Source of the DNA: Halomicronema hongdechloris C2206
GTDB taxonomy: Bacteria > Cyanobacteriota > Cyanobacteriia > Phormidesmidales > Phormidesmidaceae
Assembly (NCBI RefSeq): GCF_002075285.3
Contig: NZ_CP021983.2
Span: forward strand, 4,830,001 to 4,862,000
Length of the DNA stretch: 32,000 nt
Reading direction: 5' to 3'
Shown here: positions 1-26,544 of the stretch, in pieces
Position numbering within the stretch: position 1 is the stretch's first letter
How the letters are laid out: every line of letters starts with the position of its first letter
The notes under the pieces: generated by a model
Database searches by the model: none
The model's input: the letters and a program-made list of their open reading frames with translations, nothing else
Told to the model about the DNA's origin: nothing
Program-made: the position numbers and the translations under genes

Positions 1-2
1 AC

Positions 3-101
3 CTTTGGCACGCCGGTCGGGCTCGGGCTTCGGCAGCCGGGTTTGAGAAGGGCATCGAGCGTGAGACAGAACCCGTGCTGGCCATGGGCGATATCGACTA
101 A
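3..101 (+). CDS. 3' end of an unidentified gene truncated by the window edge
   Basis: Frame 3 is open from the window edge to TAA at 99-101 (...[22 protein letters not shown]). G+C is high like the core genome, and a terminator-like hairpin follows. With only 32 codons the product cannot be assigned. Confidence 0.3.
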
Positions 102-351: not shown

Positions 352-3300
352 CTAACTCATATGTAGACGAAAGAAAAGTTCTCTGATCAGATAGTTACGT
401 CTCGTCTCGATGGAGATGTCTGAATCATCAGAATTGCGGTAGCTCAATATTGTGTGTTTTGCCTGCTCTAAATAACCGGCGATATGTCCGTTATAACGCT
501 TCTGTCTACGGATAAGTGCTCTGAGGTGATTTGAGTCTTCTAGAAGTTGAGCACTGTACAGTTTAGCAAGCAGCACCTCAGCGTTATTATTCAGAGATAT
601 ACACTCTTCCGGCTCTGCCGTATAGGCACATAACACCATAGAGGCAGCTGCAAATACTTTTCCTAAATCAGCGATTTCGGTAATCCGACGCGGGTATAAG
701 TCACGAATAGACCTTACTTCTGGAGGAATATCCATAGAAACTTCCTCCTCGGCATCATCACTATTCAGCACTCGACTAATGTAAAATAGGCGTTCCCTAT
801 CTCGCTTGTCTTTTCGAATTCTGCACCCTTCTTCTGCAATTCCCCAAGCCATGTTGAATAAACGAATCGAATGCTGTAATTTGGCTCGCCAATCAATGTC
901 TTCTTCCGGTGACGAAATTTCCTCTTCTGTGGATGAGTTCTCTAAGCTAAACTCCTCAGAGTCGTTACTGCATAACATATATAGACCACGGGCAAAAAAT
1001 AAGTAGCATGCATTGCTTCCAAATAGATATATTGTCCGCTCAGGATGATTGGGAGATAACTTCGGTAAGCGTTCTGGATCAATGGCCAGCAATGACATAT
1101 CTAGTGCTAGCAACCCCTGCAAGTGGCGACTTGATGAATCTTGTTGATTTCCCCGAAATTCAAAGATGGCCGGGATCTTCTGTATAAGGTAGAAGCCAAA
1201 TTTATCCTGATCATCTCTAGGAAGTCCGCTTTTCTCTTTGATCTGATAATAGTATCGCCTACCAGCATCGGCATAGCTAATGAGGGCGTGATTTCTTAGT
1301 GTCCTAGCCCATTTGAGACAGCTCTCAGGCGAGAGATTGCCTAGCTGTCTAGACGATCTAAGGTCTTCTGGCTCAGCATAAGCCGCGATCAAATGCACCC
1401 AACATTGCATGGCGGCATAACAGGCATAGACCTCGCCTTCCCCATTGGCAGCCCCGTAGAGTCTAGCCTTTTCTGTCAGATAGATACGGCCCCAATGAAT
1501 CGAGGCTTCTATCCGGGTTCGGCCGAAGGTATTATCAGTGGGTAGGTGCTCATTATCTAGTGGCACAAGCTGAGGGAAAAATAACATCAGTTTGGCCCTC
1601 AGAGAGGCAATTTTTCCTAATAAAAGGTAGTGTGGGTGGAAAATTCCTTGAGAAACCTCATTAATAGCAACATATTTCCCCAAGCGGATACGAACGTGAG
1701 TGTGAGCCTGATTGAGTACTTCCCATGCTCGCAGAACAAGTCCTTCACGATTGACATTGCTAGGACAACCAGGCGGTAAATAATGATCTGAAGTATCCGC
1801 TGTGTCATACAGATAGTAATACTCTGCCAAGCACAACAAATAGCGAATGATTAATGCTCCTGAAAAAATCTCGAAGTTGTCGAGTTCAGGTCGATTAATG
1901 TTGAGCCCCTGATTGACAAAATCATCTAATACTCTTAAGCGTTTTAAGTGTCTATAGGCTTGACGATAAAGCCCTTCGGCAAGTAACGCTTCTGTAATCG
2001 ATAGGCAAGCATCAAAATAAATATAAGGGTCTGTTCTCTGAAGCAGAACATCACCAGAGTTGGGGGGTAATATTTGCTCATATATAAGCCCAATCATAGC
2101 CAAGGAGGAAAAAGGATAACCTCCCAACCGATTCCAAGCGTCTTTTAATGCAATATGACGTTCAGTACGTTGGCAAAGATGTTGAATATAAGTGTTGGGC
2201 GAAACCCCGGAATTACGAATGGCCTGTAGCCTAGCGTGCAAGGCCGATTGAGCCTGAGAGATAATAAAGTCGAAGCCGCAATAGTCCCCATGGCCTATAG
2301 GATCGGCGAAGGAAAACTCTTCATAGACCCCTAACTTTGTAGAGCTGCCGGATTGTAGTGCCTGAGCTACCGTTTCCTTTTTGCAGAGTTTGACTAAGCT
2401 GTGAGCCCACACAGGAGAAGCGACATCATCTTGAATAATTTTTTGGGTAGATATAATGTCATGGCCAATCGGAAAATAATCTTTTAGACATGGAATATCC
2501 GATAATAGAGCAGAATTAATGACTTTAATCACATGGGACAACGTGCCGCCAACACCAGTGCTGCGGATAGAAAAGTCGATGCGACGGCTATTCTGACTCG
2601 CCAACTTGCGGAAAATAGGTGCGACCGCCGGTGAGTAGTCCTTAGGCACCTTGACGTAGAATTCAGCAATGATTTCGGTGGCTTCTTGGGAGGCTAGTTC
2701 ATAGTCACCTGGCCCCGGCAGTTCTGAGGCCGCATTATGCAACAGGGTTTGGTCTAACTGGCGCAGGACTGGATGTAAGAGAGGAGGGTAGGGACCATCA
2801 AATTGCTGTAACCCCTCGAGTTCTCTGTCAGCAAAGGGTAGAGGACCACATGGCTTGATCGAAATACGTTTCAGATATACCGGAAACTGGTCGGTTAAGC
2901 GCTCATTGGCAACAACAGTTTGAGCAAGCTTGGTGACAAATGCAGGCTGCAAGTACTTACGCGCATAGGCGTTGACCACGATGTCGCTATTGGCGATCGG
3001 GCTTACTTGATTACCACTTCGAGTCAGTAGTCGGCGAATTTCCCGCTGGGCCTTTCGAGTCAAAGTCCTAACAGTACTTTCCTTTCCAGGTGAAATGTCA
3101 TTGTTAGTACCTCTATCCGATCGCTCTGGCAGGTATTCGAGTGTCTGCCTAACTACTCGAGCGACCAAATCATCCACCTTCTCGAGGGTATCTAACGGCT
3201 CATTACTATCTCCAAAGTTTAATCCAACGGCAGCTCTGTAGACCTGAAAGAGCATCTCATGATTTTCTAGATCTCCTGTGGTCTGTAAAATCAGCAGGGC

Positions 3301-3795
3301 CCTTCTCAATAGGGTGAGGCCGTCTGTTGAAGGAAGATTAAGGGCTTTGCGCTCATCAGGGGTAAGGTCAACAAGTTTGTATAGAACTGTCAGGACATCC
3401 TCTGGTGTCAGAGCTCGGTTGTAAGGCTCTTCGTGAGCCTGATAAGCTTCCCGTAGACTCTGATTAAGCGCATTCAGCATCTCGACTACACTACCTGTAG
3501 TGGCCTTGCCGAGTTTGCCGAGTTGTTCTTGCTTAATCTCCCAGGCCACTTCCTCCTGTAACAGCTGGCTGATTATTCTACGAAGATCTCTATTGCCCAA
3601 CCTGTTTGCGATCGCAGATGCATTAGGCTCTCCCCCAGCCTTTTGCTGCATGGCTAAACATGCACACAAGTGATGGAAAAGATAGACTAGACGCTGCTCA
3701 TCAGCGCATTGGCCTAGGGTCATTTCTAGTCGGTAACGAGAGTTTTCCAGAATTCTGAAGGAGATCTTGGATGAAAATGCCAGCATTCCCCCCAA
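352..3795 (-). CDS. Large (1147 aa) hypothetical protein, mostly alpha-helical with a repeat-like C-terminal half; no catalytic motif recognised
   Basis: A single 3.4-kb ORF in a region where AT-richness would otherwise give frequent stops. The start is TTG at 3795 or ATG at 3786. I saw no Walker A (GxxxxGK[ST]), HExxH or DDE motif. An acidic Ser/Glu patch is present (SEEFSLENSSTEEEISSPEEDIDW). The C-terminal half is rich in Y/L/A helix-like segments. Confidence 0.85.
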   Translation of the reverse strand: MGGMLAFSSKISFRILENSRYRLEMTLGQCADEQRLVYLFHHLCACLAMQQKAGGEPNASAIANRLGNRDLRRIISQLLQEEVAWEIKQEQLGKLGKATTGSVVEMLNALNQSLREAYQAHEEPYNRALTPEDVLTVLYKLVDLTPDERKALNLPSTDGLTLLRRALLILQTTGDLENHEMLFQVYRAAVGLNFGDSNEPLDTLEKVDDLVARVVRQTLEYLPERSDRGTNNDISPGKESTVRTLTRKAQREIRRLLTRSGNQVSPIANSDIVVNAYARKYLQPAFVTKLAQTVVANERLTDQFPVYLKRISIKPCGPLPFADRELEGLQQFDGPYPPLLHPVLRQLDQTLLHNAASELPGPGDYELASQEATEIIAEFYVKVPKDYSPAVAPIFRKLASQNSRRIDFSIRSTGVGGTLSHVIKVINSALLSDIPCLKDYFPIGHDIISTQKIIQDDVASPVWAHSLVKLCKKETVAQALQSGSSTKLGVYEEFSFADPIGHGDYCGFDFIISQAQSALHARLQAIRNSGVSPNTYIQHLCQRTERHIALKDAWNRLGGYPFSSLAMIGLIYEQILPPNSGDVLLQRTDPYIYFDACLSITEALLAEGLYRQAYRHLKRLRVLDDFVNQGLNINRPELDNFEIFSGALIIRYLLCLAEYYYLYDTADTSDHYLPPGCPSNVNREGLVLRAWEVLNQAHTHVRIRLGKYVAINEVSQGIFHPHYLLLGKIASLRAKLMLFFPQLVPLDNEHLPTDNTFGRTRIEASIHWGRIYLTEKARLYGAANGEGEVYACYAAMQCWVHLIAAYAEPEDLRSSRQLGNLSPESCLKWARTLRNHALISYADAGRRYYYQIKEKSGLPRDDQDKFGFYLIQKIPAIFEFRGNQQDSSSRHLQGLLALDMSLLAIDPERLPKLSPNHPERTIYLFGSNACYLFFARGLYMLCSNDSEEFSLENSSTEEEISSPEEDIDWRAKLQHSIRLFNMAWGIAEEGCRIRKDKRDRERLFYISRVLNSDDAEEEVSMDIPPEVRSIRDLYPRRITEIADLGKVFAAASMVLCAYTAEPEECISLNNNAEVLLAKLYSAQLLEDSNHLRALIRRQKRYNGHIAGYLEQAKHTILSYRNSDDSDISIETRRNYLIRELFFRLHMS

Positions 3796-3995
3796 AATCC
3801 TGATAAGAGTTTCTCACGTTTGCTGGGACTGGGTGTGCTTTAAATCACAAAAAATCGGAGAGATCTGAAATTTTGAATTATTCGATACAGAAATTTTGGT
3901 AAATTCTAGACCACCACCTTGAGGCGATGCCAGTGGTTGAGCTGCCATACCTTATCTGGCAAGAAAATGTGATTGCCCTAAGAATAAGGTTAGGA

Positions 3996-4031
3996 CTGAA
4001 GAAGCCAGCAATGCCGGGCCAGCTTCTTCAG
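3996..4031. other. 10-bp perfect inverted repeat (hairpin) inside the 667-bp divergent spacer
   Basis: CTGAAGAAGC (3996-4005) and GCTTCTTCAG (4022-4031) are separated by 16 nt. Confidence 0.4.
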
Positions 4032-4462
4032 TTTCCATTACACCGCCGGAGACTATGTCTCAACGGTTCTAAGAGTCTACCCAGAATCAGGGGAGAGTGT
4101 CACTAGTACACAGTAACTTTTGTCATCTCCTCATATGCCTGAGTCAGATCTTCAGAGCGTGATCATATTCTCCGGTGTTCATACTCCACACAGAACTCCA
4201 GGAGAGCAGGTCAATGAAACACCCGTTATGACCACGAGCTGATTGACTAACAGCACTCCAATAGCCAGTGGCTAGACGTCGCGCCTGTGCAGCTAGGTGA
4301 AAAACCTTGTGACCAATCATCTTGGCAAGTTGTTTTCAGAGTCTCCTGGGTTGACTCCAGGCCAGTTAGGCCATCTCTAGCACTCTTGCCTCTGTCATGG
4401 AGTCGCTCAACATCACAGGCTTGTGATGAACATTAGCCCTATTTGATTTTGGAGCCATTGCA

Positions 4463-4882
4463 ATGGTTATCAAACCCTATGACCATTTTGTCTTGAAAAG
4501 CCCTCGACATACCAAAAAAGTAGCAAAGAAACGTCTATTTACTGGGATGCTTTTAGGCTTTATAGTGGCAACTTTAGCCCTCACCAATCCCTACAGTAAG
4601 ACACAATATGTAAAAACGGTGTCTAGACGGGCCCATGACAGCTGGTGTAGTCATCCCGAGGGGGAGTTTTGCGAAATGATTGCCCCGATGACCCGCCCCC
4701 TCTTACAACAACTCCTCTATCACTCTACTCAAGTCCAGAACTATTGGGTTTTCAGCCGATTTCATACCCAGGTGGCGTGCTATGACGTTTTTGGAATTGG
4801 CCTAGGGGGACAGTACATCATTTGGGTGGTACCAGACAGAGATCCTCCCATTTGCCATCCTTTCCATGCCTTTCAACAATAG
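4463..4882 (+). CDS. Small N-terminally membrane-anchored protein, DUF4359-like (assignment from memory)
   Basis: ATG at 4463 has GGAG at 4451-4454 (8-nt spacing). A basic N-terminus is followed by one TM segment (LFTGMLLGFIVATLAL). The C-terminal motif NYWVFSRFHT...FGIGLGGQY resembles the cyanobacterial DUF4359 pattern. Confidence 0.6.
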   Translation: MVIKPYDHFVLKSPRHTKKVAKKRLFTGMLLGFIVATLALTNPYSKTQYVKTVSRRAHDSWCSHPEGEFCEMIAPMTRPLLQQLLYHSTQVQNYWVFSRFHTQVACYDVFGIGLGGQYIIWVVPDRDPPICHPFHAFQQ

Positions 4883-4955: not shown

Positions 4956-6221
4956 TTGACGGTTATGCAATGTATCTTCAAACCTGCCCATCACTATAAA
5001 AGACTCCAGCTGCTGGGGAGAAAGTTGCAAGACAAGTCGGCGACCTACCTTGCCGTTGATGTCACTACTGACACCGTGGTTGTGCTGAAGCAACTGCAGC
5101 CATCGAGCCTATCCTTACTAGGGCCAGATAGTCCCAGATTAGAGACGTTGTTCAGCCTTAAGCATCCCGGAATCGCTGCCTATAAAGCCATTTGCAGAAA
5201 GGGAGAATATACCTATCTAGTGCGTGCTTATATAGACGCTAGGAGTTTAGCGAGTCGACGGAGCTTTCGCCCTGAGGAGATCAAAGCAGTTGCGATTAGC
5301 TTACTCGAAGTATTGGCAGATTTTCAGGTTCAAATACCAATGATTATTCATGGCAACATCAAACCTGAAAATATCTTCTTTCGACCGTTATCAAATGGCA
5401 AGTTGTCACTTATTTTGACCGACTTTGATCTGGCTGTATCGCACCGATATCCTTCCTCATTTGAACCGGCCAGGGCAGGAACCTTGGGATTCACCCCCCG
5501 TGAGCAAATGCTGGGAGAGCCTAGGCCTGCTTCCGATAACTATGCTGTGGGAGCGGTTTTGTTGAGTTTGCTAAGTGGGACGCCCACCCATCAAATGGAT
5601 ACCTTGACCGATGCCGACAACCCCTATCGGTATCGCAGTCAAGACATTCTATGGCAGCCGCATACAACGATTAGCTCGCAGTTTCTGTCTTGGTTAGATC
5701 GCATGCTAGATCCTAACCCAGACCATCGGTTTCCCGATGCTCGTACTGCGCTGCAGGCATTACTGCCGCTCAGACTGATTGCCAGAGCCCGAGCTAGCCT
5801 GAGTCATTCCCAAATTCGATTAGAGGCCCCGACATTAGGGGCCCAATTACAGGACGTCATTCGGGTCAGTAATTTAAGGCCTGATGCGGTTTTGCAAGGG
5901 CAATGGCACATAACCCCTCGGCCCTATGACCCCTGTGACTGGATTGATATCCATCCGACTTACTTGGCTGGCAATGAAACAACCACGGTGGTATCTGTAG
6001 ATACCCGGCGACTGCAGGCTAAGACAACCTACGTGCGAGAACTTATTCTTCAGTCTAATAGTGAGCAACCCATCATTGCCGTGTCGCTATGCATCACGAC
6101 GGCAGACCTAACACTGCCCTCACGACCGTTGCCACTCTGGCATCTGATTGGACTGCTGGTCAGTAGTACCTTTTTGCCAGTGACTATGGTGATTTTGCTT
6201 CGTGCACTGAACAAGGGATAG
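4956..6221 (+). CDS. Ser/Thr protein-kinase-fold protein with a degenerate catalytic loop (predicted pseudokinase), C-terminal TM anchor
   Basis: Hanks-type subdomains are recognisable: VVVLK (II), LETL..LKHPGI (III), IIHGNIKPENIFF (VIb, HGN instead of HRD, nt 5349-5357), LTDFDLA (VII, DFD instead of DFG, nt 5421-5429), GTLGFTPRE (VIII), SDNYAVGAVLLSLLSG (IX) and DPNPDHRFPDA (XI). The glycine loop is missing (LGRKLQDKSATY). A C-terminal TM segment is present (LWHLIGLLVSSTFLPVTMVILL). The start is TTG at 4956 or, more likely, ATG at 4965 (GGAGA at 4948-4952). Confidence 0.85.
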   Translation: MTVMQCIFKPAHHYKRLQLLGRKLQDKSATYLAVDVTTDTVVVLKQLQPSSLSLLGPDSPRLETLFSLKHPGIAAYKAICRKGEYTYLVRAYIDARSLASRRSFRPEEIKAVAISLLEVLADFQVQIPMIIHGNIKPENIFFRPLSNGKLSLILTDFDLAVSHRYPSSFEPARAGTLGFTPREQMLGEPRPASDNYAVGAVLLSLLSGTPTHQMDTLTDADNPYRYRSQDILWQPHTTISSQFLSWLDRMLDPNPDHRFPDARTALQALLPLRLIARARASLSHSQIRLEAPTLGAQLQDVIRVSNLRPDAVLQGQWHITPRPYDPCDWIDIHPTYLAGNETTTVVSVDTRRLQAKTTYVRELILQSNSEQPIIAVSLCITTADLTLPSRPLPLWHLIGLLVSSTFLPVTMVILLRALNKG

Positions 6222-6269: not shown

Positions 6270-6623
6270 ATGCATCAAATTAGAACTTATTTCATAGGAA
6301 TGATGGTCTTGGCAAGTGGCATCATTATCTATAACCTTTGGCACTTTTTGCTGTTTACAGCTGTATTTGGAGTCACGCTATATCTTTGCACTGTAGTTGC
6401 TCATAAGATGAAGCAGAATAGCTTTGGCTACAGTCGTGCCGTATTAGTACCACTAGCGGTCGCATTTACGGGAGTCAGCCTTGGGATAGCTCTGTGCGGC
6501 TCGCCGATGCTCATTCCCGTGGGGGGCTTCCCCCTCTTAAGCTTGATTATCTACCCCAAAGTTCAGCACTGGCGGCTGGTTGCTAACTATAAGCGCAATG
6601 CTCCATATTTGATTCAACCCTAA
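6270..6623 (+). CDS. Small multi-pass membrane protein (117 aa), unknown family
   Basis: ATG at 6270 is preceded by GGGAGA at 6257-6262 (7-nt spacing). It has 3-4 hydrophobic helices and lies in the same orientation directly after the kinase-like gene. Confidence 0.6.
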   Translation: MHQIRTYFIGMMVLASGIIIYNLWHFLLFTAVFGVTLYLCTVVAHKMKQNSFGYSRAVLVPLAVAFTGVSLGIALCGSPMLIPVGGFPLLSLIIYPKVQHWRLVANYKRNAPYLIQP

Positions 6624-9842: not shown

Positions 9843-11771
9843 TCACTCCTGACCTTTTCTTAAACAACGCGACTGATGCGACTGTAAGAATACCTCCGTG
9901 GCTGGAGCGTTCATCGGTCGGGCGAAGAGATATCCTTGCCCACATTCACAGCCCAGTTTCCGCAGATATTCCAACTGCTGAGGGGTTTCGATGCCTTCGG
10001 CGACGACGACTTTATTCAGGTTACGGGCCAGTAACAAGATAGTGCGGATGATTTCTAAGCTTTGTTGATCGTGGCCCAATCGACTGACAAAGGATTTGTC
10101 GATCTTGAGGGCGTCGAAGGGGAAGGTATGCAGATAGCTCAGGGATGAATAGCCAGTGCCGAAATCATCGACGGCTAGACTAATGCGGCGGGTTCGTAAT
10201 CTCCTGAGTACACTTATCATCCGAGGTGCATCTGCCATGGTGGCGGTTTCAGTGATCTCCAACTGCAGTTGCTGAGGATTGAGCTGAGTCTGCTGCAAGA
10301 TCCGATCGATGACGGCAAGCATTGTCATCTGGCGCAGCTGTACCACCGATAGATTGACACTTATGGACAAGGGCCCTTGAACGGCATAGTGTTGCCACTG
10401 CTGCAGCTGTTGGCAGGCTTGCTGCAGTACCCATTCCCCTAGGGGGACAATCAGGCCAGTTTGTTCGGCCAAGGGAATAAACTCGCTTGGTGCAATCAGC
10501 CCCCGTTCGGGATGATGCCAGCGCACCAGGGCCTCAAAGCCAAGCAGATGTTGATTGTCTAACGCCAGAATCGGTTGGTAGTGCAGTTGAAACTGCTGTT
10601 GTTCTAAGGCAGTCCGCAAATCGGCATCTAACTGGAGCTGTTGGGCTGCCTGCAGTTGCATGATACGGTCGAAGGTCTCATGGGTAGTGCTCATGGCCTT
10701 AGCTCGATTCATAGCAGTATCTGCTGCCGTCAATAGCTCCTCGGGGGTCATCCGTACCTGAGAACTGAGGACAATGCCAATCTGACTAGTGACAACAATG
10801 CGCAAGTCTTGGACCGTAAAGGACTGATTTAGGGCCTGATGTAAGGTATTGACAATTTGGTTGGCTTCGTAGTCATCTGCCACGGTTTCCAGCAGGATGG
10901 CAAATTCACTGCCCTCTACCCGGGCTAGCAGGCCGGGGGTGGCCAAGCAGGCTTCCAGCCGCTGGGCGACTTTTACCAGAAGAGTTTCAGCAATCTGACG
11001 CCCGAGGCTGTACTTAATCACTTGGAACTGTTCGATATTTAAATAAAGCAGGGCGAAGGGAGTCGTTCTGGGTTCCTGAAGCAATTGCTGCAGCCGTTGC
11101 AGTAGTAAATTGCTCTTGGGTAGCCCCGTTAAGTCATCGTAAAAGGCCAATCGCTGTAAATCTTCCTTGGCCCGCTGCCGGTCGGTGACATCTTGCACCA
11201 TGGAAAGCAGGCCGATGAATCGGCCCTGGTCGTCTTTTAGGGGAGTATTGGTCCACTCACAGATGATTAGGCGACCATCCTTGGTGATATTTTCGTTTAC
11301 ACTGTGGGCGGCCATATCTCCCTGGGCAATACGCTGGAAAATCTGGCTGACTTGAGGATATGCTGAGGAGGGGATAATCAGCTGGTGGGGCTGATAGCCG
11401 AGTATCTCGGATTTGCTATAGCCAAAGATGGCTTCGGCAGCAGGATTCCAGTCGATGATTTGGAGATCCTGATCGCACAGGACACAACCAATAGGCATGC
11501 GGTCAATCTGTAGCTGCAGCTGTTCCTGGAGTTGTTTGGTGCGCTCAAAGCTATGTTTCAAAGACTGCTGGCTGCGATCGATTAAGCCATATAATGCCAA
11601 GCTAGTTACTAAGACATAGCCCCAGCCCTTAATCGTCTGCAGGCGAGCGGCCATTGTCAGATCATCGGTAATTAGCTCGACTAGGTAATCAGAAAATAGA
11701 ATCCAGAGACTACCTGAGAAGGCATATCCCAAAACAATCAGCAGGACTTGCTGTCTAGAAGAGAGCTGCAT
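9843..11771 (-). CDS. Membrane-anchored PAS-GGDEF(degenerate)-EAL c-di-GMP signalling protein
   Basis: Two N-terminal TM helices and a coiled coil precede a PAS domain (MPIGCVLCD...[11 protein letters not shown]). The GGDEF domain has EGSEF in place of GG[DE]EF (nt 10902-10916). The EAL domain keeps all conserved motifs I know: [42 protein letters not shown]. Confidence 0.9.
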
Positions 11772-12252: not shown

Positions 12253-13572
12253 CTATAGACGGCCTTTCGCCTTGATGCGCAGGTATTCATCCACCAGAGC
12301 CTCGCTGATCTGAGGAGCGGGGGCATCCAGCACCAGGGTTCCCCGTTGTCTTAACTGCACGAAGGCGGCCTGGCGTTGGGCCAGTAGATCTAGGGCCACG
12401 GCGCGCCCATAGGCGGCTATCACCTCGGTGGTGAAGGTGTGGGCTTGGCGATCTACCTGGGGGTCTCGCAGGGTGACGCAGAAGGGCAAATAGCGAGGCC
12501 GCAGGCGCATCAGGGCCGAGAGCAACTCCGCCGAGGCGGTGCTATCGACAATATCGGTGAGTAATACCACTAGGGCTCGCCGGGGCTGCTGCTGAACGAC
12601 GGTGGTGACGGCCCCCAAATAGTCGGATTCCTGCAACACGGGTTGCAGCGGCGTCAACTGTTCCAAAAAACGTGTCAGGCGAGACGAGCCCCCTTGGGGG
12701 GGCAGCCAAGTGGTGAGGGTGCGATGGAAGACGCCGATGCCGACCCGATCACCGCGGTGGAGGCCAGCCATGGCCAGGGCGAGGGTAGCGTTGAGGCCCC
12801 AATCGAAGCGGCTCAACCCGCCGACTCGGGAGGTCATCAGGCGACCTTGATCCAGCAGTACGATCAGAGTTTGCTCTCGCTCGGGCTCTAGTACCCGCAC
12901 CAAGGGCTGGTGATGACGAGCGGTGGCCTTCCAGTCGATCAGGCGGGGATCGTCGCCTATCCCGTAGTTCCGCAGCTCCGTAAATTCGGTGCCAACCCCT
13001 AATCGTCGGGCCTGGCGCAGGGTGCCGGTAGACTGCAGGGCCAGGCGCACTGAGAGGGCTCTGAGGCCTAACAAGTCGGGATATACGGCAACGGTAGTGG
13101 CGGCCGTGATGGTCCAATCTACCCAGGCCAGGCCCCAAGGACTGCGCTGGCGTACCTGGAGATCGCCCCAGGCAAATTCTCCCCGCTGGGTGGGATGCAC
13201 GTGGAAGCTAAGGGTTTGGTGCTGCCGAGGAGCTAGGCTGACCCGTAGCGGCATGGCAGTGCCGCCGCAGGTCGCAGGATAGTTGTCGTAGATTTGCATG
13301 TCGCCTCCCCAAGCGCCCGACTGCACCTCTAGGGTGATGATGTTGTCACGACCAATGGACAGGCGAGATAAGGGGGAACGAGTTACCTGTAACCGCTGCG
13401 ACCGGAGGCGGTGACCATCTACAATCATGAGCACCAGGAGCCCACTGTCTACGGCAAGCAGCATCAGGAAACCTAAACCCAGGGACTGACGGCTGGGGAT
13501 GAGGCCACTAACCAAGGGTGCGATCGCACCGACAATCAACAACCACCGATAGAGCCGGGTCGTCGGGATCAT
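12253..13572 (-). CDS. DUF58 family protein (vWA-like partner of MoxR ATPases)
   Basis: N-terminal TM helices are followed by the DUF58 signature ...FTELRNYGIGDDPRLIDWKATARHHQPLVRVLEPEREQTLIVLLDQGRLM.... The ORF track extends to GTG at 13596. ATG at 13572 lies 4 nt after the MoxR stop and avoids a 20-nt overlap. Confidence 0.85.
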   Translation of the reverse strand: MIPTTRLYRWLLIVGAIAPLVSGLIPSRQSLGLGFLMLLAVDSGLLVLMIVDGHRLRSQRLQVTRSPLSRLSIGRDNIITLEVQSGAWGGDMQIYDNYPATCGGTAMPLRVSLAPRQHQTLSFHVHPTQRGEFAWGDLQVRQRSPWGLAWVDWTITAATTVAVYPDLLGLRALSVRLALQSTGTLRQARRLGVGTEFTELRNYGIGDDPRLIDWKATARHHQPLVRVLEPEREQTLIVLLDQGRLMTSRVGGLSRFDWGLNATLALAMAGLHRGDRVGIGVFHRTLTTWLPPQGGSSRLTRFLEQLTPLQPVLQESDYLGAVTTVVQQQPRRALVVLLTDIVDSTASAELLSALMRLRPRYLPFCVTLRDPQVDRQAHTFTTEVIAAYGRAVALDLLAQRQAAFVQLRQRGTLVLDAPAPQISEALVDEYLRIKAKGRL

Positions 13573-13576
13573 CGCC

Positions 13577-14521
13577 TTACCGGGGCACCGGCACACTCTG
13601 CAGTATCCCCTGAATCACGGCTTCCGGGGTGAGGCCATCGAGCTGGGCCTCCGGCCCTAGCAGCAAGCGATGGCGCAACAGGGGTGGGGCCAGCCCCTTG
13701 ACATCATCGGGGGTGACATAGTCCCGCCCCTGCAGCCAGGCATGGGCCTTACTGGCCTGCAACCACAGCACCGCCGAGCGAGGGGATGTGCCCAGGGTCA
13801 GATCCCCATGCTGACGGGTCTTGTGGACTAAGGCCAGCACATAGTCCAACACCGATTCCTGCACCGTCACCTGCTGCACCCCTTGCCGGGCGGTCAAGAT
13901 CTCCTGGGCGGTGGCCAGGGGCTGCACCGACTGCAGCCGCCGGGCCTCGAAGCCAGCTTGGGCGTTTAGCAGCATCTGCTTCTCGGCCTGGGGATCTGGA
14001 TAGGCCACCTGTAACTTGAACAAAAACCGATCTAGCTGAGCCTCGGGGAGGGGATAGGTGCCCTCAAACTCCAGTGGATTCTGGGTGGCAATCACCCAAA
14101 ACAGATCCGATAAGGCATGGCGAGTCCCGTCTAGGGTAACCTGTTGTTCTTCCATGGCCTCCAGCAGGGCCGCCTGGGTCTTGGGCGGCGTGCGATTGAT
14201 CTCATCGGCCAACAGCACCTGGGTAAAGACCGGTCCCCGCTTCAGGGTAAAACGGCGGCTATTGAGGTCAAACACATTGGTGCCAATGATATCTGAGGGC
14301 AAAATGTCCGGCGTCAGCTGGATGCGGCAAAAGTCTGCCTGCATCAGCTGGGCCAGCACCTTGACCACCAGGGTCTTGCCAGTGCCCGGCACCCCTTCCA
14401 AAATCACGTGTCCCCCGGCCAACAAGGCCACCAGCAAGTGCTCCACCAAGGTGCCTTGGCCCACCACCACCCGGCTGAGCGCCTGGCCAACGCGATGTAA
14501 CGAAGTGTGGGACTCAGTCAT
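13577..14521 (-). CDS. moxR: MoxR-family AAA+ ATPase
   Basis: Walker A is GVPGTGKT and Walker B is LLADEINR, and the typical MoxR stretch [18 protein letters not shown] is present. At 314 aa the length fits the family. Confidence 0.93.
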
Positions 14522-15612
14522 AGATCACGGGAATGCAGGACATGGAGACGACGTAACCACTCTCGCAGAGTCATTGTATTCAAGCTAGTGGGCGGAGTCA
14601 GGGGATGTAGCTCGGTTGCCGCGCCCCCCGTGGCCTGATGCCAGGCCGTGGCCAGGGTAGCATCATCCACCGGCCCTGTTCCTAGGCCTAAGCGCTGCTG
14701 CAACTGCTGCCGCTCCGCCGCTGCTAGGGCATCGACCACGAACTGATGGCTATTGGCCTTGTATAGCACTTCCGCCAGGGCCTGAATATAGGCGGTGCTG
14801 TTATCCACCACTGGGGGATGGATTGCCTGGGGAGCCCCGAGATACCGGTTCTGGGCCCACCCGATCAGTAGGCAAATCACTACTATTTGGCCGCATACCA
14901 ACACCAGCGGGGTCTGGGCTAGGTAGGTGAGCCAGCTACTGGCCCCTGCTGTGGCCGAGGCTTCAGCCTCCCGGTAACCATGGAGATACTCATCTACCCA
15001 GATCGGTCCCCCGGCTTGGGTGACCAGGTCGGCCAGCCAGGGAAAGTTGCCCGCTGCCTGCTGGTAAGCATTGGCGGCCAAATGGGGTGTCACCGCTAGA
15101 ATCAGTTGACCGGCGGACTGGGGCTGTCGCCAGACAATCAGACCCTGATCGTCCTGCAGTAAGGGGGTCCCTTTCTCGGCGGCTTGCCGCCGTCGGGTGG
15201 CGATGGTGACGGGGCCCCGATCACTGGGGATCTGGGTCTCAAAGGGGGCCGCCGTGACCGGGTAGCTCAAGCCCAACACGACCAGGGTGTTGCCTCGGCG
15301 CAGCCAATCGTCCAACCAGGGCCGCTGGGCCCAACTGCCCTCGACCGACCAGAAAGTTGGATGAATCTGCACCAGGGTGGCTGGTTCTTGGTCGCGGCGC
15401 TGTTTCAGTAGATCAGCGACAGGCTGCTGCCAACGCTGAATCGCGACCCCTTGTGCTTCCATGTAGTCATACCAAGCGGCATAGCCATCGGGATTGCGAT
15501 TCCAGGTGGAGCCACTGGCCAGGGAGAAGGCACTGGGGGTCGATAGGGACAGCAGACCCAGGAGCAATAGCAGACCCATCCCGAATAGCAACCAGAGCCG
15601 TCGTTGCCTCAT
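14518..15612 (-). CDS. DUF4350-like membrane-anchored protein
   Basis: An N-terminal signal/TM segment is followed by the [16 protein letters not shown] motif typical of DUF4350, with a late TM helix. The stop overlaps the moxR ATG (ATGA at 14518-14521). Confidence 0.75.
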
Positions 15613-16190
15613 GGCCGCATGATCTCCTGAAAGGCGCGGCGACAGCGCTCGTAGGTGTCGGCCGCGGCGGGATGGTTGCCAAACTCCAGGCGCTCGTGGG
15701 TGCGAATTAAGAGTTGATAGGGGCGAGGCTGGGCCAGTTGGCTCACTTGGTCGAGGTAGTCGCCGTCGGTGTAACTGGGATTGGCGGGCAGGTGCTGCTG
15801 TTGGTGCAGATATTGCAGGGCAGCTAGATAGAGAATATGGCAGGCTTGTCGGTAGTCACCCTGTTGGGCCCAGTGCTGGGCCTGCTGCCATCTCACCGGG
15901 GAAGAGGCTGCCTGGGAGGTCGATACCGAGGTCGGCCGCCGCCGTTGCCACTGGCCCGGCTGGTGCCACCAATTGGCCCCCATCCTATAGAGCATCCAGG
16001 CCAACCATAGCCCTAGTCCGGCCAAGATTAGCCCCAGCAGCACTTGTCTCAGGGGCTCCGGCAACGTCCACTGGGGGGAATCAGCGGGCTGCCATTGCCA
16101 GCGAGACCAAAAAAATTCCCAGGCTTCCCCGAGTCGTTGCAGCAGGAGCCGCAGTTGCCAGCCCAGGTTGCTGGTTGCATAAGCATCCAT
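15609..16190 (-). CDS. DUF4129-like protein
   Basis: A TM segment is followed by the C-terminal motif WAQQGDYRQACHILYLAALQYL...PSYTDGDYL, characteristic of DUF4129. The stop overlaps the DUF4350 ATG (ATGA at 15609-15612). Confidence 0.75.
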   Translation of the reverse strand: MDAYATSNLGWQLRLLLQRLGEAWEFFWSRWQWQPADSPQWTLPEPLRQVLLGLILAGLGLWLAWMLYRMGANWWHQPGQWQRRRPTSVSTSQAASSPVRWQQAQHWAQQGDYRQACHILYLAALQYLHQQQHLPANPSYTDGDYLDQVSQLAQPRPYQLLIRTHERLEFGNHPAAADTYERCRRAFQEIMRP

Positions 16191-26471: not shown

Positions 26472-26544
26472 CGGGCCCTGCAGGATTCGAACCTGCGACT
26501 TACCGCTTAGAAGGCGGTTGTTCTATCCCCTGAACTAAGGGCCC
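26472..26544 (-). tRNA. tRNA-Arg (anticodon UCU)
   Basis: Folded by hand into a perfect cloverleaf: acceptor GGGCCCT/AGGGCCC, D stem GTTC/GAAC, anticodon stem ACCGC/GCGGT with loop CT-TCT-AA, variable loop AAGTC, T stem GCAGG/CCTGC with loop TTCGAAT, discriminator G. CCA is not encoded. Length is 73 nt. Confidence 0.92.

What the first reader, a model, noticed from the sequence alone, without database searches (positions are those of the whole stretch)
352..3795. 1147-aa orphan protein with no recognisable enzymatic motif
This is the largest gene in the window, and I could not place any catalytic or nucleotide-binding signature in it (no P-loop, HExxH, DDE, HNH, GGDEF or kinase motifs). The C-terminal 600 aa read like irregular TPR/HEAT-type helical repeats (for example LAEGLYRQAYRHLKRL, CLAEYYYLYD, ACYAAMQCWVHLIAAYAE). 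A short hyper-acidic Ser/Glu patch is also present. Large repeat-containing proteins standing alone in compositionally foreign islands are typical of conflict or defence sensors and scaffolds. This one lacks the NTPase module such systems usually have. It may be a new family, or its effector may lie outside the window.
Basis: inference. Interest (0 to 1): 0.7.

Follow-up and report, generated by a model that had tools for sequence, protein, structure and literature searches.

The report
Uncharacterised conserved cyanobacterial protein family
The big gene is real and matches no known protein family or solved fold, but it is not an orphan or a defence gene: it belongs to a conserved cyanobacteria-only family that nearly always sits beside a small membrane protein and downstream of a conserved RNA element and regulator-binding sites.

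Summary
The ORF at 352-3795 (minus strand) exists and is XM38_045930 of Halomicronema hongdechloris C2206. Homologues place the real start at ATG 3723, giving 1123 aa rather than 1147. No Pfam, NCBIfam, PADLOC, PHROG, PDB-sequence or Foldseek match was found, so the "no recognisable motif" observation holds.

"Orphan" is wrong. There are 97 near-full-length homologues and 154 clusters at 50% identity, and every named one is cyanobacterial. The defence-sensor reading is not supported: 116 neighbours from 29 loci are mostly housekeeping genes, there are no viral relatives, and the gene's GC3 differs widely between host genomes (0.16-0.79).

Three things are conserved around the gene:
- A divergent, roughly 70-aa tail-anchored zinc-ribbon gene in about 46 loci. 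In the Halomicronema clade, including this window, a DUF4359/pseudokinase/TM block takes its place.
- A roughly 175-nt structured RNA element on the gene's own strand (window 3888-4060).
- NtcA-type GTA-N8-TAC boxes, about 40-fold enriched upstream. The window has only a degenerate copy.

AlphaFold gives a compact helical / novel alpha-beta / alpha-solenoid protein (pTM 0.84).

Best guess, at low to moderate confidence: a regulated, membrane-recruited scaffold or adaptor. An enzyme of unknown chemistry is nearly as likely.

The parts
352..3723 (-). Coding sequence of the large protein from its most likely true start (ATG 3723, residue 25 of the maximal ORF) to the stop codon: 1123 aa. The maximal ORF runs to the TTG at 3795.
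   Evidence: ORF. 100% identical to XM38_045930. 41 of 44 homologues start at the aligned Met. No TM segment: maximum KD19 = 1.4.
3136..3723 (-). N-terminal helical region (residues 25-220). It is the part that many distant homologues do not align over.
   Evidence: AF2 secondary structure and pLDDT 50-87. Many distant hits align only from residue ~95-250 onward. Per-region conservation.
2200..3135 (-). Central alpha/beta domain (residues 221-532). It has three long strands (306-316, 372-382, 405-416) and no fold match.
   Evidence: AF2. Foldseek against PDB found nothing at E<=1e-3, either for the whole chain or for the domain alone.
2515..2562 (-). Gly-rich motif S412-T-G-x-G-G-T-L-S-H-x-x-K-x-x-N427 at a strand-to-helix junction. 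G414 is invariant and S420 nearly invariant across the broad family.
   Evidence: Invariant columns in A1 and A2. Secondary structure.
355..2199 (-). C-terminal all-alpha solenoid (residues 533-1147) with beta-hairpin insertions at ~863-899 and 991-1008.
   Evidence: AF2 pLDDT mostly 80-97. Only weak, generic solenoid and TPR-like Foldseek matches. No sequence repeats.
889..972 (-). Acidic Ser/Glu-rich loop (residues 942-969), predicted disordered. The long insertion is lineage-specific.
3888..4060 (-). Conserved structured RNA-like element upstream of the gene on the same strand (5' hairpin P1, co-varying hairpin P2, a third hairpin, weak 3' stem). It is either a leader/attenuator or a small RNA.
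   Evidence: Covariance model R1 hit of 32.8 bits, E = 4.5e-4. One hit per locus in 42 loci. P2 is 93% paired, 8 of 8 pairs have double changes, and 0 of 500 shuffles reach the covariation score. Window copy folds with z = -2.7. P1 forms in about 34 of 40 copies. No Rfam match.
4074..4103 (-). Sigma-70-like promoter (GTGACA-18-TAGACT) immediately 5' of the RNA element.
   Evidence: Consensus scan, 9 of 12 matches. This is weak on its own, but a -10-like box sits at the same place in other loci.
3875..3888 (-). Degenerate NtcA/CRP-type operator GTATCGAATAATTC (GTA-N8-TTC) at -165 from the ATG. It lies at the position of the distal GTA-N8-TAC box of other lineages.
   Evidence: The same one-mismatch variant sits at exactly -165 in L062 and L003.
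4463..4882 (+). Divergent neighbour 1: a 139-aa DUF4359 protein with an N-terminal TM anchor. It is part of the four-gene low-GC block.
   Evidence: Pfam DUF4359, 3.7e-6. Orthologues lie next to the big gene in L062, L064 and L003.
4956..6221 (+). Divergent neighbour 2: a protein-kinase-fold protein with HGN in place of HRD (catalytic Asp replaced by Asn), a degenerate Gly loop and a C-terminal TM helix. It is a predicted membrane pseudokinase.
   Evidence: Pkinase 4e-18. Motifs conserved in three orthologues.
6270..6623 (+). Divergent neighbour 3: a 117-aa multi-pass membrane protein, the last gene of the block.

Best explanation
XM38_045930 is a genuine gene for a soluble protein of about 1123 aa. 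It belongs to an uncharacterised family found only in cyanobacteria. The protein is compact and has three parts: a helical N-terminus, a new alpha/beta domain with a conserved Gly-rich loop, and a C-terminal alpha-solenoid.

My proposed mechanism is that it acts as a regulated scaffold or adaptor recruited to the membrane. Its only conserved genomic partners are small membrane-anchored proteins. In most lineages the partner is a divergently transcribed, tail-anchored zinc-ribbon protein. In the Halomicronema clade, including this window, it is a DUF4359 / pseudokinase / TM block.

I also propose that its expression is controlled by a conserved upstream unit. That unit is a structured RNA of about 175 nt on the same strand, followed by one or two NtcA/CRP-type GTA-N8-TAC operators. 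This points to control by nitrogen/carbon status or a related signal.

Shown here: the family and its distribution, the architecture, the partner linkage, the RNA element and the operator enrichment.

Inferred only: physical interaction with the partner, membrane recruitment, a scaffold role rather than a catalytic one, ligand binding by the Gly-rich loop, and the identity of the regulator.
For: Family: 97 homologues of about 1100-1160 aa, 154 clusters at 50% identity, and 58 genomic loci that are all cyanobacterial. All named distant members are cyanobacterial too.

Architecture: AF2 pTM 0.84. No TM segment. No catalytic motifs.

Partner: the zinc-ribbon/TM gene lies 420-520 nt upstream, divergent, in about 46 loci, while nothing else in the neighbourhood is conserved. 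The partner family has 62 clusters in the same organisms and often on the same contigs.

Partner swap: the DUF4359/pseudokinase/TM block is linked to the gene in the window, L062, L064 and L003, although the outer flanks differ.

RNA element: one covariance-model hit per locus in 42 loci, including the window. Covariation in P2 and in P1.

Operators: 46 perfect GTA-N8-TAC sites in 45 spacers against 6.2 expected from shuffles. Density is 4.9 per kb in the last 200 nt against 0.12 per kb elsewhere in the same loci. The window, L062 and L003 keep a one-mismatch variant at -165. The NtcA consensus GTAN8TAC is taken from PMC3898017 and PMC5714215.
Against: No interaction or localisation data exist. 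Conservation is high and even along all 1100 aa: 98 invariant columns among 45 sequences, many of them polar (H, D, E, K, R, S, Q, N). That pattern fits an enzyme or a multi-interface machine better than a simple scaffold.

The operators lack the canonical TAN3T box at 19-24 nt (4 of 44 sites against a 9% background), so these are not textbook NtcA-activated promoters. The window itself has only a degenerate box and no zinc-ribbon partner. The 3' stem of the RNA is weak in most loci, so whether it is a leader or a separate sRNA is unresolved.

The protein is not named in the held text of the H. hongdechloris proteome supplement. That text may be truncated. The isolated alpha/beta domain modelled poorly (pLDDT 60), and no AlphaFold DB search was possible.
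Confidence: 0.38

Rival explanations
1. The protein is an enzyme of unknown chemistry. On this reading the compact alpha/beta-plus-solenoid body forms an active site. Candidate residues are the Gly-rich loop S412-H421, H445-D446, W463-x-H465, D504-x-C506-x-x-D509, Y560-P-F-S563 and Q1098-x-R-x-N-G-H1104. The small membrane partner would position it or supply or receive a substrate at the membrane.
For: Unusually many invariant polar and aromatic residues are spread over the whole length. A subset survives down to about 21-25% identity: N297, G414, S563 and Q1098 are invariant, and S420, C506, D509, R522, E607, R778, R1008, R1037, N1102 and H1104 are at least 90% conserved. The high pTM of 0.84 indicates one compact body rather than a floppy solenoid. 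A Gly-rich loop at a strand-to-helix junction is a classic anion or phosphate-binding geometry (established knowledge).
Against: No known catalytic motif was found. No profile hit was found even at E<=1. No fold match to any enzyme in the PDB was found. H421, H445 and D446 are not conserved in the broad family.
Confidence: 0.3
2. The protein is a conflict or anti-phage sensor or scaffold in a horizontally acquired island, and its effector lies elsewhere.
For: The four-gene block is 5-10 GC points below its flanks in the window, and is also lower in L062, L064 and L003. In L062 and L064 the block sits among Uma2, BrnT/CopG, type I R-M and nSTAND-like genes. One homologue is on a conjugative-type 328-kb plasmid next to IS21 and Uma2. 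The adjacent kinase-fold protein hits PADLOC kinase models (PD-T4-6, mad6) through its generic kinase domain.
Against: The protein itself has no PADLOC hit. The neighbour census shows no defence enrichment. In the window the flanks are psbC2 and ordinary chromosomal genes, with no integrase or transposase. The family is usually one copy per genome, has a fixed partner and upstream region in many species, and its GC3 ranges from 0.16 to 0.79 across hosts. There are no viral relatives. The kinase lacks its catalytic Asp.
Confidence: 0.07
3. The gene is a decaying or functionless remnant in Halomicronema. On this view it has lost its zinc-ribbon partner and its operators and survives only as hitch-hiking DNA in a low-GC patch.
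For: The window lacks the zinc-ribbon gene and perfect GTA-N8-TAC boxes. The protein is not named in the held proteome supplement text. Occasional disrupted copies exist elsewhere: L053 is split and L060 is fragmented.
Against: The reading frame is intact over 1123 codons and keeps every residue that is invariant across the 45-sequence family alignment. The closest relatives (64-76% identity) are also intact and share the same replacement neighbours. The RNA element and the -165 box are retained.
Confidence: 0.05

Closest known systems
STAND-type NTPase sensors with C-terminal TPR or helical-repeat arrays (MalT, Avs/NLR-like defence proteins)
   Same: Large size (about 1100 aa) and a C-terminal all-alpha repeat-like region. 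There is a weak local Foldseek resemblance to MalT domain III (1hz4, probability 0.77, E 0.56).
   Different: No Walker A/B or any NTPase module. No effector domain. No PADLOC hit. Not enriched near defence genes.
Alpha-solenoid scaffolds (HEAT/importin-beta, TPR subunits of APC/C, separase N-terminal solenoid)
   Same: The predicted C-terminal superhelical all-alpha architecture, and these are the top (non-significant) Foldseek hits. A scaffold role is my working model.
   Different: TM-scores are 0.21 or below and E-values 0.01 or above. There are no Pfam HEAT, TPR or Sel1 hits and no internal sequence repeats. The solenoid is fused to, and probably packs around, an unmatched alpha/beta domain.
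Small cyanobacterial TPR-type membrane-associated assembly factors (Ycf3, Ycf37, Pitt, PratA). This comparison is from my own knowledge.
   Same: They are restricted to cyanobacteria and plastids, are helical-repeat proteins, and act at membranes with partner proteins.
   Different: They are 3-6 times smaller and have recognisable TPR motifs. No homology to them was detected here, and the comparison is by analogy only.
HypX hydrogenase maturation factor (some database records label distant family members 'HypX (modular protein)')
   Same: Only the label, carried by the Lusitaniella and Crocosphaera members.
   Different: The labelled member P0144 has no formyltransferase or enoyl-CoA hydratase domain, and no significant Pfam hit at all. 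The label is unsupported.
NtcA-dependent promoters and nitrogen-regulated sRNAs of cyanobacteria (for example NsrR1, PMC6166021)
   Same: GTA-N8-TAC palindromes that match the NtcA consensus (PMC3898017), next to a conserved structured RNA.
   Different: The boxes lie downstream of the RNA element. They often occur as a tandem pair 40-51 nt apart and lack the canonical -10 spacing. No Rfam family matches the RNA.

Membership tests
P-loop / STAND NTPase | Walker A GxxxxGK[ST] and an NTPase-domain profile match | tested here: not met
   The regular-expression search found none. No Pfam or NCBIfam NTPase hit at E<=1.
TPR / HEAT / Sel1 repeat proteins | Profile match to the repeat families, or detectable internal sequence repeats | tested here: not met
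   No Pfam hit. The hhalign self-comparison of residues 533-1147 gave no off-diagonal hit. Only the predicted all-alpha architecture agrees.
Known anti-phage defence systems (PADLOC-DB v2) | Match of the protein to a defence-system model, with co-localised system components | tested here: not met
   0 families for the protein. No PADLOC family was hit by more than 2 of 116 neighbours.
HypX | N-terminal formyltransferase-like domain and C-terminal enoyl-CoA hydratase-like domain | tested here: not met
   Neither domain was found in the window protein or in P0144, which carries the label.
Any solved fold (PDB) | Foldseek E<=1e-3 or TM>0.5 to a PDB chain | tested here: not met
   Whole chain: best E 0.012, TM 0.21 or below. 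Domain alone: best E 0.15, but that model has pLDDT 60. AlphaFold DB was not available.
Active Hanks-type Ser/Thr kinase (neighbour at 4956-6221) | Kinase fold plus the catalytic HRD Asp, a Gly-rich loop and DFG | tested here: not met
   The fold is met (Pkinase 4e-18). The catalytic Asp is replaced by Asn (HGN) in all three orthologues, the Gly loop is degenerate, and DFG reads DFD, DFR or DFA.
Zinc-ribbon protein (partner gene in other lineages) | Two CxxC knuckles about 12-20 residues apart | tested here: met
   C19, P20, C22, C37 and C40 are invariant. Pfam zinc-ribbon families match just below their thresholds. A C-terminal hydrophobic helix is visible in all members.
Canonical class II NtcA-activated promoter | GTAN8TAC centred near -41.5, with a TAN3T -10 box about 22 nt downstream | tested here: inconclusive
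   GTAN8TAC is strongly enriched and positionally conserved. TAN3T at 19-24 nt is not enriched, at 4 of 44 sites. Transcription start sites are unknown, and the window has only a one-mismatch box.
Rfam RNA families | Covariance-model score above the gathering threshold | tested here: not met
   The window yielded only a tRNA at 26472-26544. Six other loci yielded nothing.

The most novel reading that the evidence does not exclude
The large protein, its tail-anchored zinc-ribbon partner, the upstream structured RNA and the tandem NtcA-type operators together form a previously unrecognised acclimation module of thin filamentous and related cyanobacteria. The module would respond to nitrogen/carbon status. 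It would be built around a protein with a new fold whose Gly-rich loop binds a small anionic ligand. The RNA would act as a cis-acting attenuator or riboswitch-like leader.
Probability: 0.2. Interest if true: 0.7.

Novelty: categorically new. Interest (0 to 1): 0.45.

Why it matters
If the working model holds, this locus defines a cyanobacteria-specific protein family with no curated model and no solved structural relative. It comes with a dedicated membrane partner and its own conserved regulatory RNA and operator set. That gives a concrete, testable entry point into an unknown piece of cyanobacterial physiology, possibly linked to the NtcA nitrogen network.

In practical terms, it removes a false "defence orphan" lead and corrects the start codon. 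It flags an unsupported database label ('HypX (modular protein)'). It also supplies a covariance model for an RNA motif that is absent from Rfam.

A caveat on the novelty rating: "categorically new" means here that every membership test failed. It does not mean that a new mechanism has been demonstrated. Uncharacterised conserved families are common in cyanobacteria (44% of this genome is annotated as hypothetical, PMC6416890), so the interest score is moderate.

Tried and rejected
- The weak Pfam Ppx-GppA hit (residues 72-172, E 0.12, 12 bits against a cutoff of 27) was rejected. It is below threshold and the region is predicted all-helical.
- The weak PDB-sequence hits (designed BCL-xL/MCL-1 inhibitors, SmtB, an ArfGAP) have E>=0.065 and are not credible.
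- GHMP-kinase motif II and the PEP-utiliser phosphohistidine signature (GG-x-T-x-H) were considered for the S412-H421 loop from memory. Both were rejected: there is no profile or fold hit, the PROSITE-type pattern is not satisfied, and H421 is not conserved in the broad family.
- The profile search with the broad alignment A2 returned only the already known close homologues, so it was uninformative.
- Modelling the alpha/beta domain alone gave a poor model (pLDDT 60) and no fold hits.
- BFVD fold search: nothing significant. One local TPR-like match to a Moumouvirus repeat protein.
- A small ORF on the opposite strand inside the RNA element (SD-N8-ATG) was considered. It was rejected because its length varies from 4 to more than 60 codons between loci (sequences, read by eye).
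- An anti-sigma (ZAS, H-x3-C-x2-C) reading of the zinc-ribbon partner was considered. It was rejected because the cytoplasmic part, about 45 aa, is too short for an anti-sigma domain (inference).
- A possible link between the Ser/Glu insertion and the adjacent kinase was checked. The insertion is absent from P0002, which has the same kinase neighbour, and the kinase is predicted to be inactive.
- The GGDEF-EAL genes convergent downstream in three distant loci and at 9843-11771 in the window were judged too common in cyanobacteria to count as evidence.
- The first attempt at the neighbour census failed because it exceeded the residue limit.


Full report
OBSERVATION. The window holds a 1147-codon ORF on the minus strand at 352..3795, starting at a TTG. 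It is the largest ORF in the window. The acidic Ser/Glu patch is at residues 942-969. A direct pattern search finds no Walker A, HExxH, GGDEF, HRD/DFG, GxGxxG, GxSxG or CxxC motif. Profile searches against Pfam, NCBIfam, PADLOC, PHROGs and PDB sequences give nothing credible. The factual core of the finding therefore holds.

Three details need correcting. First, 41 of 44 aligned homologues begin at the Met aligned with residue 25, so the real start is most likely the ATG at 3723, which gives 1123 aa. Second, the long Ser/Glu insertion is found only in this protein and in one relative. It is predicted to be disordered, and other homologues carry a short acidic loop there. Third, the C-terminal half is predicted to be all-alpha, but it has no TPR or HEAT profile hit and no internal sequence repeat.

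IDENTITY AND DISTRIBUTION. The protein is 100% identical to XM38_045930 of Halomicronema hongdechloris C2206. That organism has a 5.58-Mb genome with 54.6% GC (PMC6416890). The protein is not an orphan. A word-indexed search found 97 homologues of about 1100-1160 aa at 37-76% identity. An exhaustive HMMER scan of 1.84 billion representatives found 154 clusters at 50% identity, reaching down to about 26% identity, and nearly all are 1040-1200 aa long. A scan of one genome per GTDB species returned 58 loci, all cyanobacterial. They include Nodosilinea, Phormidesmis/Phormidesmidales, Leptolyngbyaceae, Elainella, Thainema, Oculatellaceae, Trichocoleus, Tildeniella and Vacuolonema, plus more distant copies in Coleofasciculaceae and Prochloraceae MAGs. 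Named distant members come from Lusitaniella, Crocosphaera and Phormidesmis priestleyi. One copy lies on the 328-kb plasmid of Pseudanabaena sp. PCC 7367. None of these proteins has a Pfam domain on record. No relative was found in IMG/VR viral contigs. Some records label distant members 'HypX (modular protein)'. That label is unsupported, because the labelled protein has no HypX domain.

STRUCTURE. AlphaFold2 with a 45-sequence alignment gives a confident global model (pTM 0.84, mean pLDDT 78). It has a helical N-terminal region (about residues 30-220). It then has an alpha/beta domain (about residues 225-530) with three long strands, where a strictly conserved Gly-rich motif (S412-T-G-x-G-G-T-L-S-H..K..N427) sits at a strand-to-helix junction. 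The C-terminal part (533-1147) is an alpha-solenoid with two beta-hairpin insertions. Foldseek against the PDB and BFVD gave no hit at E<=1e-3. The best matches are generic solenoids at TM 0.21 or below: importins, FANCI, separase and MalT domain III. The alpha/beta domain modelled alone was less confident (pLDDT 60) and also had no match. This suggests it packs against the solenoid. No TM segment is predicted. Conservation is spread along the whole chain, with 98 invariant columns among 45 sequences. A core of invariant or near-invariant residues survives across the broad family: N297, G414, S420, C506, D509, R522, P561-F-S563, E607, R778, R1008, R1037, Q1098, N1102 and H1104.

GENOMIC CONTEXT. 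I called ORFs in all loci and clustered them. The only neighbour conserved across the family is a small gene of about 70 aa, transcribed divergently upstream. It encodes an often His-rich N-terminus (HPxHPHH), a four-cysteine zinc ribbon (CPxC...CxxC, invariant) and a C-terminal hydrophobic helix, so it is a tail-anchored membrane protein. tblastn finds it next to the big gene in about 46 loci. Its family has 62 clusters and occurs in the same organisms and often on the same contigs.

The small gene is absent from the window (tblastn), and no Halomicronema copy was retrieved. In the window, and in the closest relatives (64-76% identity), the divergent position is occupied by a three-gene block. 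The block consists of a DUF4359 protein with an N-terminal anchor, a kinase-fold protein with a C-terminal TM helix, and a 117-aa multi-pass membrane protein. The kinase-fold protein has HGN in place of HRD in all three orthologues, together with a degenerate Gly loop. It is therefore a predicted pseudokinase. Outside these four genes the flanks differ between relatives.

DEFENCE-ISLAND TEST. In the window the four-gene block is 46-50% GC, against 57-64% in the adjacent genes. It is also 3-10 points below its flanks in L062, L064 and L003. The compositional step is therefore real. However, the window flanks are ordinary chromosomal genes. On the left is psbC2 (a CP43 C-terminus is encoded at 1-101). 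On the right are RDD, SpoIIM-like, PAS-GGDEF-EAL, MoxR/DUF58 and tRNase Z genes. There is no integrase or transposase.

Across the family, the gene's GC3 ranges from 0.16 to 0.79, in genomes whose flank GC ranges from 0.34 to 0.61. A census of the two nearest genes on each side in 29 loci (116 proteins) found 170 different Pfam families. None occurred more than three times, and most are housekeeping genes such as aminoacyl-tRNA synthetases, Mur ligase, PFK and glycosyltransferases. No PADLOC family was hit by more than two neighbours. The relatives L062 and L064 do lie among TA, R-M and Uma2 genes. The Halomicronema-type block may therefore sit in variable regions. The family as a whole does not behave like a defence gene.

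UPSTREAM CONTROL REGION. This was found by following the context. The spacer between the zinc-ribbon gene and the big gene is 422-516 nt long in 41 of 45 loci, even though the proteins have diverged to about 45% identity. It contains two conserved features.

(a) GTA-N8-TAC palindromes, which match the NtcA consensus (PMC3898017, PMC5714215). There are 46 perfect sites in 45 spacers, against 6.2 expected from shuffles with a maximum of 13. They occur in 36 of 45 loci and cluster at -101..-127 and -137..-185 from the ATG. Their density is 4.9 per kb there, against 0.12 per kb in the rest of the same loci. The canonical TAN3T -10 box at 19-24 nt is not enriched, so these are NtcA/CRP-type operators of undetermined mode. 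The window, L062 and L003 carry a one-mismatch version (GTATC-N6-[A/G]ATTC) at exactly -165. In the window this is 3875-3888.

(b) A structured RNA-like element of about 175 nt on the big gene's strand. RNAalifold finds an 8-bp hairpin. A covariance model built from 24 sequences finds exactly one hit per locus in 42 loci within 1.04 Mb searched. The hits are always upstream of the big gene and on its strand, and about 15 of those loci were not used to build the model. They include the window at 3888-4060 (minus strand, 32.8 bits, E 4.5e-4), L003 (E 9e-6) and L062 (E 0.04). The hairpin is 93% paired, has double changes at all 8 pairs, and exceeds all 500 shuffles and all slid controls. That alignment was fitted to the model, which favours the structure. 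A 5' hairpin with clade-specific inner stems forms in about 34 of 40 copies. The 3' stem is terminator-like in some loci but has only a 3-bp conserved core overall. A sigma-70-like promoter lies just 5' of the element in the window. No Rfam family matches. A 2026 survey of cyanobacterial RNA structures screened only 931 widely shared orthologous groups (PMC12873609), so it probably did not cover this gene. Because the element is retained where the zinc-ribbon gene has been replaced, it belongs with the big gene.

HOW IT MOST LIKELY WORKS. Three things are shown: a conserved soluble protein with no detectable relative, a conserved membrane-anchored partner, and a conserved regulatory region. 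From these I infer a regulated protein that is recruited to the membrane by its small partner and acts there as a scaffold or adaptor. Its expression would be gated by an NtcA/CRP-type regulator and by a leader RNA. My confidence is about 0.38.

The main rival, at about 0.30, is an enzyme of unknown chemistry. The large number of invariant polar residues and the compact predicted body favour it. The lack of any catalytic motif, profile match or fold match counts against it. The defence-sensor reading (about 0.07) and a decaying-remnant reading (about 0.05) are disfavoured for the reasons given above. The remaining probability covers functions I cannot formulate.

COMPARISON AND NOVELTY. The protein resembles STAND/TPR sensors and alpha-solenoid scaffolds only in its size and its helical C-terminal half. 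Every membership test I could run failed: NTPase, TPR/HEAT, PADLOC, HypX, PDB fold and Rfam. I therefore rate it as lying outside known kinds, with two caveats. AlphaFold DB could not be searched, and no function has been demonstrated. Uncharacterised conserved families are common in cyanobacteria, so overall interest is moderate (0.45). The most novel reading not excluded is a new nitrogen/carbon-responsive module made of the protein, its partner and the RNA. I give that a probability of 0.2.

Noticed in passing
window 3888-4060 (minus strand); also for example L026:9654-9829, L010:9700-9868: A conserved structured RNA-like element of about 175 nt lies upstream of the big gene on its own strand. 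It was found in 42 loci by a covariance model built here (R1), it has two co-varying hairpins, and it has no Rfam match. It could be a leader/attenuator or an sRNA.
   Followed up: yes
window 3875-3888 (minus strand); other loci at -101..-185 from the big gene's ATG: NtcA-type GTA-N8-TAC palindromes, often as a tandem pair, are about 40-fold enriched upstream of the family's genes. The window has only a one-mismatch version (GTA-N8-TTC). The canonical -10 spacing is absent.
   Followed up: partly
window 4956-6221 (+): A kinase-fold protein with HGN in place of HRD, a degenerate Gly loop and a variable DFG, conserved in three orthologues. It has an extra domain of about 130 aa and a C-terminal TM helix, and is a predicted membrane pseudokinase. 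Orthologues start near its residue 4, so the ATG at 4965 may be the real start.
   Followed up: partly
L010:9352-9564 and about 45 other loci; absent from window 3724-4462: A family of tail-anchored zinc-ribbon proteins of about 70 aa (HPxHPHH-LECPxC...CLxC-W-x-RD plus a TM helix) is always divergent from the big gene. It has 62 clusters and none from Halomicronema. Some sources mislabel members as ribosomal protein L37E, rubredoxin or RpoP.
   Followed up: yes
window 1-101 (+): The 3' end of a gene encoding a CP43-type C-terminus (...[20 protein letters not shown]), which corresponds to XM38_045920 = psbC2. It is GC-rich (64%) and marks the sharp left boundary of the low-GC four-gene block.
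   Followed up: partly
window 9843-11771 (-); L044:13280-15103, L046:13391-15181, L047:7932-9848: The window holds a PAS-GGDEF-EAL gene, itself lower in GC at 51%. In three distant-homologue loci, REC- or PAS-GGDEF-EAL genes lie convergently just downstream of the big gene. This may be chance, because such genes are abundant in cyanobacteria.
   Followed up: no
L053:8235-12820; L060:7851-9576: The big gene appears to be disrupted in two genomes. In L053 it is split into 270-aa and 978-aa pieces with an opposite-strand ORF between them. In L060 it is in fragments. This indicates occasional pseudogenisation or assembly errors.
   Followed up: no
L027 and L030 (same MAG, Phormidesmidales LS6_sbin.19): One genome carries two copies of the big gene. 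Each has its own zinc-ribbon partner and its own RNA element hit.
   Followed up: no
window 12253-16190 (-): A MoxR-type AAA ATPase, DUF58/vWA, DUF4350 and DUF4129 gene cluster. It is an ordinary chromosomal module unrelated to the finding.
   Followed up: no
P0144 (Lusitaniella), P0159 (Crocosphaera), P0249 (Leptolyngbya sp. Heron Island J): The database names 'HypX (modular protein)' or '(modular protein)' are attached to family members. The one member scanned (P0144) has no HypX domain or any other significant Pfam hit, so the annotation is probably an artefact that has been propagated.
   Followed up: yes
L061 (Pseudanabaena sp. PCC 7367 plasmid pPSE7367.01, 204515-207946): A 34%-identical homologue lies on a 328-kb plasmid, flanked by IS21 and Uma2 genes. 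It is the only plasmid-borne copy among 72,556 PLSDB plasmids.
   Followed up: partly
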